The notes under the pieces are model-generated. The model saw only the letters and a program-made list of their open reading frames with translations. It made no database searches and was not told the origin of the DNA. The position numbers and the translations under genes are program-made. Shown here piece after piece: positions 38,659 to 42,339 of a stretch of 64,000 bases of DNA. Positions within the stretch are counted from its first letter, which is position 1. Each line of letters begins with the position of its first letter. This DNA comes from the human T2T-CHM13v2.0 reference genome, Homo sapiens, in the NCBI RefSeq assembly GCF_009914755.1, contig NC_060927.1; one strand, given 5' to 3'.

Positions 38659-39920
38659 TGGAAGTTCAATCTTTAAATATTTGTTTTATTTTATAATTTT
38701 GGTTTCTTCTTTGGAGACTCAAGTTTTGCAAATATTGTCTCTCCTAAGCCTGCTCATCCATTCCTCTTTTTTCCTGACACTTCACTGATTATTTATTTTT
38801 CTTTCCTTCTTACTTGTCTTGTTCTTCTCTTTTATATCACTTAATGTTTTGACCTGACTCTACTTCCCTGTTTGCAACTTCCAATTTCAATTAATCTCTT
38901 TAATGAAGAATTACTATTAGTTCACTTTTTCTAGAACTATGATACCTCATGTTTCCTCTTCTTACGCAGTCTCATCCTCTTCTACTTGAGTTATTTTTTC
39001 TTTAGTTTATGCTCTTATAACATAAATGAGAGGATTTCATGATTTTTCATAATTCATGAAGAAATGTTTACATATAATTTTCTCCTTTTTACACAAATAT
39101 TCAGAGCAGTTTTATTCATAATTGTAACAATATGGGGGCAACCCAAAATTTCTTTGATGGGTTAATGGTTAAATAAACCCTCCTGGGAGAAGCAGTAACA
39201 TCCATAAAGGTGTGGAAGTTGAAGCAATTGATCAGAGTAGACTGCCTTCCACTGCTCCCACAGCCTGTGTTACTGATGTGACTGTTATGGAACAGAAGAA
39301 AATTTTGAACGACACTCCTCTCATTTCTATGATTTTAATCTTTTGAAATTTATTGATAAATATTCTTCATCCCTAGCAATCTTCTTGCCTTAAGTCTATT
39401 TTGTCTGGTAGTAGTATAAACACACTAAAATTTCTACTAGTATATATGGCTTATTATTTTTCATTCTTTTACTTTCAACTTTTTTGTGCCCTTATATTTA
39501 AAATATGGCTTTTTTAGGCAACATACAGGACTTTTGAAATCTGCTTTAACCATTGTTTTGCCTTGAATTGGAGTACTTATTCAATTTTCATTAAATGTAA
39601 CTACTGATGTAGCATGGCTGACGTCTTCCATCTTGCTGTTTGTTCTCTATTTGCCCCATCTGTTCTATATTCCTTTTTCTCCCCTTTCTCGTCTTCTGCT
39701 ATACTCATTAGGCATTTTTACTTCCATTTTCCCCTTTATTAAACAATTAGTTATATGTTTTTAATGGTTATAGCTGTTGCAACATGCCTTACATACCATA
39801 AGGTTAATTCGACTTCTTCCTTTCCAATTTGGATACACTTTATTTCTTTCTCTGGGCCACTTGCTCTGGCTAGGACTTCTAGTACTATGTTGAATAAAAG
39901 TGATGAAAGTGGGCATCTTG

Positions 39921-40717
39921 GCCCTCTCTCACCACTCTTATTCAACATAGTGTTGGAAGTTCTGGCCAGGGCAATCAGGCAGGAGAAGGAAATAAAGGGT
40001 ATTCAATTAGGAAAAGAGGAAGTCAAATTGTCCCTGTTTGCAGATGACATGATTGTATATCTAGAAAACCCCATCGTCTCAGCCCAAAATCGCCTTAAGC
40101 TGATAAGCAACTTTAGCAAAGTCTCAAGATACAAAATCAATGTGCAAAAATCACAAGCATTCTTATACACCAATAACAGACAAACAGAGAGCCAAATCAT
40201 GAGTGAACTCCCATTCACAATTGCTTCAAAGAGAATAAAATACCTAGGAATCCAACTTACAAGGGATGTGAAGGACCTCTTCAAGGAGAACTACAAACCA
40301 CTGCTCAATGAAATAAAAGAGGATACAAACAAATGGAAGAACATTCCATTCTCATGGGTAGGAAGAATCAATATTGTGAAAATGGCCATACTGCCCAAGG
40401 TAATTTATGGATTCAATGCCATCCCCATCAAGCTACCAATGACTTTCTTCACAGAATTGGAAAAAACTACTTTAAAGTTCATATGGAACCAAAAAAGAGC
40501 CCGCATCGCCAAGTCAATCCTAAGCCAAAAGAACAAAGCTGGAGGCATCATGCTACCTGACTTCAAACTATACTACAAGGCTACAGTAACCAAAACAGCA
40601 TGGTACTGGTACCAAAACAGAGATATAGACCAATGGAACAGAACAGAGCCCTCAGAAATAATGCCACACATCTACAACCATCTGATCTTTGACAAACCTG
40701 ACAAAAACAAGAAATAG
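39921..40717 (+). pseudogene. L1 ORF2 reverse-transcriptase remnant (L1-derived part of the 320-aa ORF 39755-40717)
   Basis: [20 protein letters not shown]...[10 protein letters not shown]...KYLGIQLT; premature TAG at 40715; further stops and frameshifts downstream. Confidence 0.93.
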
Positions 40718-41978
40718 GGAAAGGATTCCCTATTTAACAAATGGTGCTGGGAAAACTGGCTAGACATATGTAGAAAGCTGAAACTGGATCCCTTCCTTAC
40801 ACCTTATACAAAAATTAATTCAAGATGGAGTAAAGACTTAAATGTTAGACCTAAAACCACAAAAACCCTAAAAGAAAACCTAGGCAATACCATTCAGGAC
40901 ATAGGCATGGGCAAGGACTTCATGTCTAAAACACCAAAAGCAATGGCAACAAAAGCCAAAATTGACAAATGAGATCTAATTAAACTAAAGAGCTTCTGCA
41001 CAGCAAAAGAAACTACCATCAGAGTGAACAGGCAACCTACAGAATGGGAGAAAATTTTTGCAATCTACTCATCTGACAAAGGGCTAATATCCAGAATCTA
41101 CAATGAACTCAAACAAATTTACAAGAAAAAAACAAACCCATCAACAAGTGGGCGAAGGATATGAACAGACACGTCTCAAAAAAAGACATGTATGCAGCCA
41201 AAAGACACATGAAAAAATGCTCATCATCACTGGCCATCAGAGAAATGCAAATCAAAACCACAATGAGATACCATCTCACACCAGTTAGAATGGAGATCAT
41301 TAAAAAGTCAGGAAACAACAGGTGCTGGAGAGGATGTGAATAGGAACACTTTTACACTGTCGGTGGGACTGTAAACTAGTTCAACCATTGTGGAAGTCAG
41401 TGTGGCGATTCCTCAGGGATCTAGAACTAGAAATACCATTTGACCCAGCCATCCCATTACTGGGTATATACCCAAAGGATTATAAATCATGCTCTATAAA
41501 GGCACATGCACACGTATGTTTACTGCGGCACTATTCACAATAGCAAAGACTTGGAACCAATCCAAATGTCCAACAATGATAGACTGGATTAAGAAAATGT
41601 GGCACATATACACCATGGAATACTATGCAGCCATAAAAATGATGAGTTCATGTCTTTTGTAGGGACATGGATGAAGCTGGAAACCATCATTCTCGGCAAA
41701 CTATCTCAAGGACAAAAAACCAAACACTGCATGTTCTCACTCATAGGTGGGAATTGAACAATGAGAACACTTGGACACAGGAAGAGGAACATCACATACT
41801 GGGGCCTGTTGTGGGGTGGGGGGAGGGGGGAGGGATAGCATTAGGAGATATACCTAATGTAAATGATGAGTTAATGGGTACAGCACACCAACATGGCGCA
41901 TGTATACATATGTAACAAACCTGCACATTGTGCACATGTACCCTAAAACTTAAAGTATAATAAAAAAATTAAAAAAAA
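39921..41978 (+). mobile_element. 5'-truncated L1PA3/PA4-like LINE-1
   Basis: ORF2 3' half, 3'UTR G-tract, 'aaacttaaagtataataaaaaa' tail; 17-bp TSD ATGAAAGTGGGCATCTT (39903-39919) / ATGGAAGTGGGCATCTT (41979-41995). Confidence 0.96.
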
Positions 41979-42339
41979 ATGGAAGTGGGCATCTTTGTCT
42001 TATTCCAGATTTTAGTGGAAAGGCTTCTAATTTTTCCCCACGTCATATGATACTAGCTGTGGATTTGTTATATATGACCATTACAGTGTTGAGGCATGTT
42101 CCTTCTGTACCCAATTTGTTAAGAGTTTTTATCATGAAGGATGTTGAATTTCATTGAATGCTTTTCTATCATCAATTGAAATTACCATTTTTTGTCCTTG
42201 ATTCTGTTGATATGATGTTATCATGTTTATTGATTTGTGTGTGTTGAACCATCCTATACACACAATTTTTATCTGTTCCACGGCAAATTTTCTTATATTT
42301 TTTTCTGTCCCTAATGCCCCTTTTTATTAGGGACATGTG

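What the first reader, a model, noticed from the sequence alone, without database searches (positions are those of the whole stretch)
39811..41995. L1PA truncated exactly opposite its own homologous position in an antisense L1 target: possible RNA:target-pairing-determined junction
Seen: a young sense L1PA (17-bp TSD) sits inside an older antisense L1 ORF2 fragment that resumes colinearly after the tail. The newcomer starts at 39921 ('gccctctctcaccact'), the same ORF2 position as the target's TSD end ('...gaaagtgggcatc' reversed is 'gatgcccactttc'). This leaves a gapless inverted repeat, 39811-39914 vs 39921-40024 (81/104 matches by hand count), around a 6-nt loop. Both strands encode [28 protein letters not shown]. 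The TSD start (TG|ATGA) is not the usual TT|AAAA endonuclease site. Known: in TPRT and twin priming, the top-strand 3' overhang can anneal inside the L1 RNA. Inference: this overhang was complementary to the incoming RNA over ~100 nt, so pairing fixed the truncation point (twin priming with a near-zero inversion) and possibly guided site choice. Truncation within a few nt of one position in a 6-kb RNA is unlikely by chance.
Basis: partly seen in the sequence, partly recalled or inferred. Interest (0 to 1): 0.8.

Follow-up and report, generated by a model that had tools for sequence, protein, structure and literature searches.

The report
L1 cut short opposite its twin
A younger L1 retrotransposon landed backwards inside an older L1 and stops within a few bases of the matching position, and other such nested pairs in this genome show the same thing, which suggests that pairing between the cut target DNA and the L1 RNA sets where the new copy ends.

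Summary
A 2,059-nt 5'-truncated L1 (39920/1-41978, A-rich tail, 17-nt TSD matching 16 of 17) sits antisense inside a colinear older L1 ORF2 fragment. This gives an inverted repeat of 85 of 109 matches with a 6-nt loop.

Of 15 antisense-nested L1-in-L1 cases with both flanks seen, 8 have the newcomer's first base within 10 nt of the position homologous to the target's top-strand end. A locally uniform null expects 1.3 (P about 9e-6). Counting every doubtful hit against the idea gives 11 of 29 (P about 7e-6). In 5 of these 8, as in the window, the new 5' end lies inside the stretch homologous to its own TSD.

Best reading (0.65): the exposed top-strand overhang pairs with the L1 RNA, as in the first step of twin priming, and first-strand synthesis ends there. 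Pairing itself is inferred. The "~100 nt" pairing and guided site choice are untested. Three literature searches found no description. It is a new variant of a known kind.

The parts
39806..39919 (-). Left part of the older L1 ORF2 fragment (antisense). It forms the left arm of the inverted repeat.
   Evidence: 78-79% identical to the reverse complement of the young copy's first 109-112 nt. It translates to [38 protein letters not shown].
39903..39919 (.). 5' copy of the target-site duplication. This is the inferred top-strand 3' overhang.
   Evidence: ATGAAAGTGGGCATCTT matches 41979-41995 at 16 of 17 positions.
39915..39920 (.). 6-nt loop between the arms. Base 39920 (G) is not the T that related L1 copies carry before GCCC.
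   Evidence: All 7 related copies read ...GGAT before GCCCTCTC.
39921..41978 (+). Younger 5'-truncated L1, running from the ORF2 reverse-transcriptase domain to the 3' end with an A-rich tail at 41962-41978.
   Evidence: 92.5-95.8% identical over about 1,560 nt to six of the seven other genomic copies; the seventh aligns in two pieces at 92.9% and 97.9%. Pfam RVT_1 E 1.7e-14. Tail and TSD read.
41979..41995 (.). 3' copy of the target-site duplication.
41996..42255 (-). Right part of the older antisense L1, which resumes colinearly after the tail.
   Evidence: 41984-42255 maps to L1 coordinates +7 to -268 relative to the young copy's start, at 74% identity.

Best explanation
A younger L1 integrated by ordinary target-primed reverse transcription into an older L1 lying in the opposite orientation. 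After the second-strand cut, the 17-nt top-strand 3' overhang (the future TSD) was antisense L1. It was therefore complementary to the incoming L1 RNA at the homologous ORF2 position. The overhang annealed to the RNA, which is the starting configuration of twin priming, but it was not extended. First-strand synthesis coming from the poly(A) end ran partly into this hybrid and ended there. The cDNA end was then joined to, or the enzyme switched template onto, the overhang end held next to it. The result is a copy truncated 5-6 nt inside the homologous position and a near-perfect palindrome. Shown: the anatomy, and the genome-wide excess of such junctions. Inferred: the RNA:overhang pairing, and the way synthesis ends, which could be a stall with template switch or cleavage of the RNA within the hybrid.
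For: Anatomy is. The reverse complement of the TSD matches the sequence that related copies carry at this place at 12 of 17 positions without gaps, including 7 in a row (GATGCCC). The new copy starts inside that run (read).

Recurrence comes from 16 anchor scans that yielded 65 distinct loci. Of 15 nested cases with both flanks seen, 8 have an offset of at most 10 nt: L020, L022, L026, L029, L031, L050, L056 and L057. The expectation is 1.30 and P = 9e-6. Including 6 cases whose flanks were not seen gives 11 of 21 (P = 4e-7). Counting 8 unclassified hits as misses gives 11 of 29 (P = 7e-6). Collapsing to one case per distinct target site gives 7 of 13 (P = 4e-5).

The symmetric cases lie at 5 well-separated L1 positions. 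L056 and L057 are independent events: their new parts are 94% alike and their old parts 81-85% alike.

Offsets of +7 to +10 with TSDs of 12-19 nt in L026, L029, L031, L056 and L057, and +5/6 with TSD 17 in the window, put the 5' end inside the overhang-homologous stretch. These junctions show 0-1 nt of ordinary same-sense microhomology (read). Published models require the 3' overhang to base-pair with LINE RNA for twin priming (Discussion of PMC4245944; Background of PMC2912911).
Against: Pairing was never observed; it is inferred from geometry. The mechanism is not obligatory. Of the 15 verified nested cases, 4 are far off (-131, +85, -64, +141) and 3 are 20-24 nt off.

L020 and L046 have small target deletions instead of TSDs, so no 3' overhang is expected. 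They still join near the homologous place (-8 and about +23), which a pure overhang model does not predict.

L022 and L050 start 2 nt beyond the overhang end. Base 39920 is unexplained, and the first nick site is not the usual one.

The null assumes a locally uniform density of truncation points, and hot spots exist: five cases fall at one target site. Anchors were chosen by me and sample only the last 2.06 kb of L1. Only one other case lies near the window's own region (C11:56913674, offset 8, flanks not seen).

Short palindromic 5' ends also arise without any antisense target: L016, L051, L058 and L059 carry 17-38-nt inverted pieces.
Confidence: 0.65

Rival explanations
1. The junction is set by homology during integration, but through DNA:DNA pairing. 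The first-strand cDNA (antisense) pairs with the sense strand of the old L1 in the left flank. This forms the stem of the future hairpin and brings the cDNA 3' end next to the broken end for joining, as a repair-type reaction.
For: It predicts the same spike at offset 0. It would also cover L020 and L046, which have target deletions and no TSD overhang yet join near the homologous place. The finished strand folds into a very stable hairpin.
Against: The strand needed for pairing is base-paired in the flank, and it is the strand normally removed by end resection (established knowledge, recalled). The model does not predict why, in the window and 5 other cases, the 5' end falls inside the TSD-homologous stretch rather than at its outer edge.
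Confidence: 0.15
2. Coincidence at this locus. The truncation point and the target position match by chance among the many nested L1 pairs of a 3.1-Gb genome.
For: One such match in a whole genome is expected by chance. Taking the far-off cases as the background, about 0.6 of the 11 symmetric cases would be chance. The uniform null gives about 1.9 of 21.
Against: The class as a whole is 6- to 18-fold enriched. The window's 5' end also lies inside the 7-nt best-paired run of the overhang.
Confidence: 0.1
3. A longer L1 was inserted and its extra 5' part was later removed by hairpin-mediated deletion between the inverted arms.
For: The arms can form a strong hairpin. Two symmetric cases carry internal deletions close to the centre: 16 nt in L022 and 31 nt in L055. 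This shows that such structures do suffer deletions.
Against: The 5' TSD copy is complete and directly abuts the truncated end, both here and in L022, L026, L029, L031, L050, L056 and L057. A deletion would have to start exactly after the TSD each time, and it would create rather than destroy a palindrome.
Confidence: 0.04
4. A single L1 with a snap-back or very short twin-priming inversion, in which both arms come from the same RNA.
For: Such ends exist elsewhere. L016, L051, L058 and L059 have 17-38-nt inverted pieces that duplicate the start of the body.
Against: The arms here are only 78% alike, while the body is about 92-96% like other copies. The TSD lies inside the antisense arm, and the old L1 continues for 260 nt after the tail.
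Confidence: 0.01

Closest known systems
Twin priming (model for L1 5' inversions; original paper recalled and not held; described in PMC2912911 Background, and PMC4245944 Discussion)
   Same: The top-strand 3' overhang left by second-strand cleavage anneals to an internal part of the same L1 RNA while first-strand synthesis proceeds from the poly(A) end. TSDs are 9-20 nt, as reported for inverted inserts.
   Different: No inverted segment of the new element is made, because the overhang is not extended. Complementarity is built in and long (12-20 nt, from an antisense L1 target) rather than a few chance bases. The outcome is a plain 5' truncation at the annealing site.
Microhomology or 'annealing' pathway of L1 5'-end joining (PMC4245944 abstract and Discussion; PMC2912911 passages)
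   Same: Base pairing involving the top-strand overhang decides where a truncated insert is joined.
   Different: In that pathway the overhang pairs with the first-strand cDNA (same-sense microhomology of a few nt). Here the overhang has the same sense as the cDNA and can only pair with the RNA. The junctions show 0-1 nt of same-sense microhomology.
Chimeric L1s formed when a new insertion meets a resident L1 in the same orientation (recalled from cell-culture studies of about 2002-2005; not read here)
   Same: Homology between the incoming L1 and a resident L1 at the target shapes the 5' junction.
   Different: Those cases are in the same orientation, involve cDNA:DNA annealing, and give a seamless hybrid element. 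Here the orientation is opposite and the product is a palindrome.
Template jumping of non-LTR reverse transcriptases onto the upstream target end (described in PMC2912911 Background)
   Same: The proposed last step is a switch from the RNA to the 3' end of the top strand without microhomology.
   Different: Here the acceptor end would be held beside the enzyme by pairing with the RNA just ahead of it, so the switch happens at an internal, predictable place rather than at the RNA 5' end.

Membership tests
Endonuclease-dependent L1 insertion by target-primed reverse transcription | Flanking target-site duplication | tested here: met
   17 nt, 16 of 17 identical, at 39903-39919 and 41979-41995.
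Endonuclease-dependent L1 insertion by target-primed reverse transcription | 3' end intact with an A-rich tail, and a 5' truncation | tested here: met
   Tail at 41962-41978. Colinear with other copies from the RT domain onward.
Endonuclease-dependent L1 insertion by target-primed reverse transcription | [quoted passage not shown] | tested here: not met
   The top strand reads GTG/ATGAAA. Relaxed sites are known (recalled), so this weakens but does not exclude membership.
Twin-priming 5' inversion | Inverted 5' segment copied from the same RNA as the body | tested here: not met
   The antisense arm is 78% like the body's start and belongs to an older L1 that continues after the tail.
Twin-priming 5' inversion | One TSD pair enclosing both the inverted and the direct segment | tested here: not met
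   The 5' TSD copy lies inside the antisense arm and abuts the sense body.
Twin-priming 5' inversion | Complementarity between the top-strand overhang and the L1 RNA where the second primer anneals | tested here: met
   12 of 17 gapless, 7 contiguous, against the sequence of 7 related copies. Whether annealing occurred is not testable here.
Fold-back or inverted duplication of one sequence | Arms derived from one another (near-identical) | tested here: not met
   85 of 109 matches.

The most novel reading that the evidence does not exclude
Pairing between the exposed top-strand overhang and the L1 RNA is a general determinant of where L1 copies are truncated. An aborted twin priming sets the 5' end. 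When the target is an antisense L1, a sizeable share of insertions become near-perfect palindromes at a predictable base; a rough guess from 11 symmetric and 5 far-off cases is one in five to one in three. If so, truncation could be programmed by target sequence. A class of hairpin-forming L1/L1 palindromes in primate genomes would then be a direct footprint of the integration intermediate.
Probability: 0.35. Interest if true: 0.8.

Novelty: new variant of a known kind. Interest (0 to 1): 0.68.

Why it matters
How L1 copies come to be 5'-truncated, and how the 5' end is joined, is the least understood part of L1 integration. Antisense L1 targets act as a natural experiment in which the overhang is complementary to a known place in the RNA, and the new copy's end follows that place. 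This is in vivo evidence, written in the genome, for the overhang:RNA annealing step that the twin-priming model assumes. It suggests a simple bench design: a target carrying antisense homology to the reporter L1. It also identifies a source of L1/L1 palindromes that fold into long hairpins and may be prone to deletion.

Tried and rejected
(1) Off-diagonal scans were meant as an empirical background: the reverse complement of one anchor followed by a different anchor (with 94 and 139 matches). I rejected this control. The two strand orders are the same pattern, classical inversions of single elements dominate such hits, and they cannot be told from nested pairs without flanks.

(3) The anchor at 457 with 2 mismatches gave 6 loci, none with both arms at the anchor. 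Anchors at 982 and 760 gave nothing. Anchors at 1660, 1927 and 870 gave no nested case.

That case and five others are counted only as 'flanks not seen'.

(6) The original twin-priming paper is not held.

(7) I saw short complementarity between overhang and RNA at the far-off junctions (4-8 nt in L023, L025, L042 and L045). I did not test it against chance, so it is not used as evidence.

(8) Three full-text searches and passages of PMC2912911, PMC7026601 and bioRxiv 10.1101/2024.12.14.628481 gave no description of homologous-position truncation in antisense-nested L1s. Subscription papers and supplements were not seen.
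Full report
OBSERVATION. The inverted repeat has arms 39806-39914 and 39921-40029, with 85 of 109 gapless matches. 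The arms surround the 6-nt loop ATCTTG.

The sense arm is the start of a 2,059-nt L1 copy (39920/1-41978) that ends in an A-rich tail. It is flanked by ATGAAAGTGGGCATCTT (39903-39919) and ATGGAAGTGGGCATCTT (41979-41995), which match at 16 of 17 positions. Both arms translate to the same ORF2 stretch. The sense copy's first 113 residues match the C-terminal part of Pfam RVT_1 (E 1.7e-14).

ANATOMY. I used longer L1 copies from the same genome as a ruler (L002-L008, fetched). The antisense L1 is colinear across the insertion. Positions 39806-39917 map to +109..-2 and 41984-42255 map to +7..-268 relative to the young copy's first base, at 74-79% identity. The young copy is 92.5-95.8% identical to six of those copies over about 1,560 nt; the seventh, L004, aligns in two pieces at 92.9% and 97.9%. 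So this is a younger element nested in an older, oppositely oriented ORF2 fragment of about 380 nt. I could not test the subfamily label 'L1PA' because no repeat library was available.

All 7 related copies read ...GGAT immediately before GCCCTCTC. Base 39920 (G) is therefore either an untemplated base or a later change. The reverse complement of the TSD matches that sequence at 12 of 17 positions without gaps, including GATGCCC in a row. The young copy starts inside that run. The first nick (GTG/ATGAAA) is not the usual T-rich site (wording of the consensus: PMC2912911). The junction is unique in the genome, and the strand folds into one long hairpin of -62 kcal/mol, z -11.4.

IS IT MORE THAN CHANCE? 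One locus cannot say, because a 3.1-Gb genome with many nested L1s will hold some coincidences. For a 14-mer K taken from the young copy, the pattern 'reverse complement of K, 0-300 bases, K' finds every head-to-head L1 pair whose junction lies within reach of K, whatever the two end positions are.

The scan at the window's own site found only the window, and I do not count it. Sixteen other anchors were scanned with at most 1 mismatch (2 for the first). In coordinates of the young copy they were 457, 1319, 1535, 1660, 1060, 1752, 982, 672, 1815, 1463, 1151, 1927, 870, 150, 1380 and 760. They gave 66 matches at 65 distinct loci.

I classified the loci by BLAST against the young copy and by reading the junctions:
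- 15 are antisense-nested pairs with both flanks seen. The old L1 is colinear on both sides and the new copy has a tail.
- 6 are head-to-head pairs whose junction I could read but whose flanks I could not fetch.
- 11 are single elements with an inverted 5' piece.
- 9 are inversion-like with flanks unseen.
- 2 are short palindromes with near-identical arms and flanks unseen.
- 3 have a 41-47-nt antisense piece inside an old sense L1.
- 6 are complex.
- 13 have one arm that is not L1, is not at the anchor, or is separated by other DNA.

RESULT. I define the offset as the coordinate of the new copy's first base minus the coordinate homologous to the last base of the flank it abuts (the top-strand 3' end). 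The 15 verified cases, with TSD length, are:

| Locus | Offset | Target site |
|---|---|---|
| L022 | -2 | TSD 9-10 |
| L050 | -2 | TSD 14 |
| L026 | +7 | TSD 12 |
| L057 | +7 | TSD 14 |
| L031 | +9 | TSD 17 |
| L029 | +10 | TSD 19 |
| L056 | +10 | TSD 14-16 |
| L020 | about -8 | 18-nt target deletion, no TSD |
| L046 | about +23 | about 17-nt deletion |
| L042 | -23 | TSD not tabulated |
| L023 | +24 | TSD not tabulated |
| L034 | -64 | TSD not tabulated |
| L027 | +85 | TSD not tabulated |
| L025 | -131 | TSD not tabulated |
| L045 | +141 | TSD not tabulated |

The null places the new 5' end uniformly within each case's detection range. Results:
- Verified cases: 8 of 15 within 10 nt, against 1.30 expected, P = 9e-6.
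- Verified cases: 11 of 15 within 25 nt, against 3.1 expected, P = 1e-5.
- Adding the six flank-unseen cases (offsets 7, 8, 10, 18, 20, 58): 11 of 21 within 10 nt, P = 4e-7.
- Counting eight unclassified inversion-like hits as misses: 11 of 29, P = 7e-6.
- One case per distinct target site: 7 of 13, P = 4e-5.
- Using the five far-off cases as an internal background: 0.6 cases expected within 10 nt.

The symmetric cases sit at 5 well-separated L1 positions (near 1121, 1244-1272, 1417, 1479 and 1760), plus 538, 1320 and about 130 for the flank-unseen ones. L056 and L057 share a target site, but they are independent events. Their new parts are 94% alike and their old parts 81-85% alike.

WHERE EXACTLY THE NEW COPY STARTS. 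In the window (+5/6, TSD 17) and in L026, L029, L031, L056 and L057, the first base lies 0.3-0.7 of the way into the stretch homologous to the TSD. In L022 and L050 it lies 2 nt beyond it. These junctions show 0-1 nt of ordinary same-sense microhomology (read). The place that matters is thus the stretch expected to be single-stranded after the staggered cuts.

MECHANISM. Shown: nested anatomy, an intact TSD abutting the truncated end, and the excess at offset zero. [quoted passage not shown] The latter paper also reports TSDs of 10-20 bp for inverted inserts.

Inferred: in an antisense L1 target the overhang is complementary to the RNA at the homologous place, and it anneals there. First-strand synthesis displaces its 5' part and ends when 5-10 bp remain. 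The cDNA end is then joined to, or the enzyme switches onto, the overhang end beside it. Cleavage of the RNA within the hybrid would give the same product, and I cannot tell the two apart. I put 0.65 on RNA:overhang pairing and about 0.8 on some homology-determined junction formed during integration.

RIVALS.
- Pairing of the cDNA with the flank's sense strand (0.15) predicts the same spike. It would better cover L020 and L046, which lack a TSD. It does not explain ends falling inside the TSD-homologous stretch.
- Chance for this one locus (0.1) remains possible.
- Later trimming of a longer copy (0.04) is unlikely, because the deletion would have to begin exactly after an intact TSD here and in seven other loci. 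However, internal deletions next to the centre in L022 (16 nt) and L055 (31 nt) show that these palindromes do decay.
- A single-element snap-back is excluded here. It does exist elsewhere: L016, L051, L058 and L059.

AGAINST MY READING. Pairing is not obligatory: 4 of 15 verified cases are far off and 3 are about 20-24 nt off. The null is a uniform one, and target hot spots exist. The anchors were my choice and cover only the last 2.06 kb of L1. Three anchors in the upstream part gave nothing or nothing usable. Six counted cases lack flank evidence. No orthologue could be examined.

COMPARISON AND NOVELTY. The element is an ordinary TPRT insertion by TSD, tail and truncation, although the nick site is atypical. 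It is not a twin-priming inversion, because the antisense arm is a different, older element and the TSD lies inside it. It does appear to use that model's first step. It differs from microhomology joining in that the overhang can pair only with the RNA, not with the cDNA.

Three full-text searches and passages of three papers gave no description of truncation at the homologous position in antisense-nested L1s. PMC2912911 left out insertions with nested insertions inside them, and could not characterise the empty site for insertions lying inside repeats. Subscription journals and supplements were not seen, so 'not in print' is only as strong as those searches. I rate it a new variant of a known kind.

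Noticed in passing
L028, L030, L033; also L029 at 1600-1649: Three independent loci carry a 41-47-nt antisense L1 piece (young-copy coordinates about 1519-1568) inside an old sense L1 at about 1506-1513. L029 has a similar 50-nt piece. This could be an inherited subfamily feature or a recurrent snap-back next to L1's own palindrome TGGGTATATACCCA. It is unexplained.
   Followed up: partly
L016, L051, L058, L059; possibly C4:59185567 and C9:18013493: Single L1 insertions whose 5' end carries a 17-38-nt inverted piece that wholly duplicates the start of the body. These hairpin ends arise without any antisense L1 at the target. L059 is centred on L1's own GAACTAGTTC.
   Followed up: partly
L022 and L055: In two symmetric nested cases the new copy has an internal deletion (16 and 31 nt) right after its first 11-20 bases. 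This could be later palindrome decay or a second template skip.
   Followed up: no
L020, L022, L023, L025, L026; L056, L057: Recurrent target sites inside antisense L1. Five independent insertions fall at young-copy coordinates about 1240-1272 and two at 1121-1140, both next to T-run/A-run sequence.
   Followed up: partly
(whole genome): Patterns joining two different anchors 384-433 nt apart gave 94 and 139 matches, against 0-11 for same-anchor patterns. From the visible 80-nt ends, many look like classical 5' inversions of single L1s, but none was classified.
   Followed up: no
C3:166908679 and C16:25872270: Two inversion-like L1 junctions on different chromosomes have inverted segments that start at the same L1 position (about 1625, TTGGAACC...).
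   Followed up: no
L034: Nested case with a 62-nt target deletion in which the new copy's first base (1381) matches the coordinate where the old L1 resumes after the tail (1382), rather than the flank it abuts.
   Followed up: no
window 42340-42650, 43328-44092, 44462-45076, 55625-56606: Further L1 3'-part fragments in the window: two antisense (95% and 90% like the young copy) and two sense (75% and 69%). The first gives the 92% inverted repeat 41680-41740 / 42340-42400 seen.
   Followed up: no
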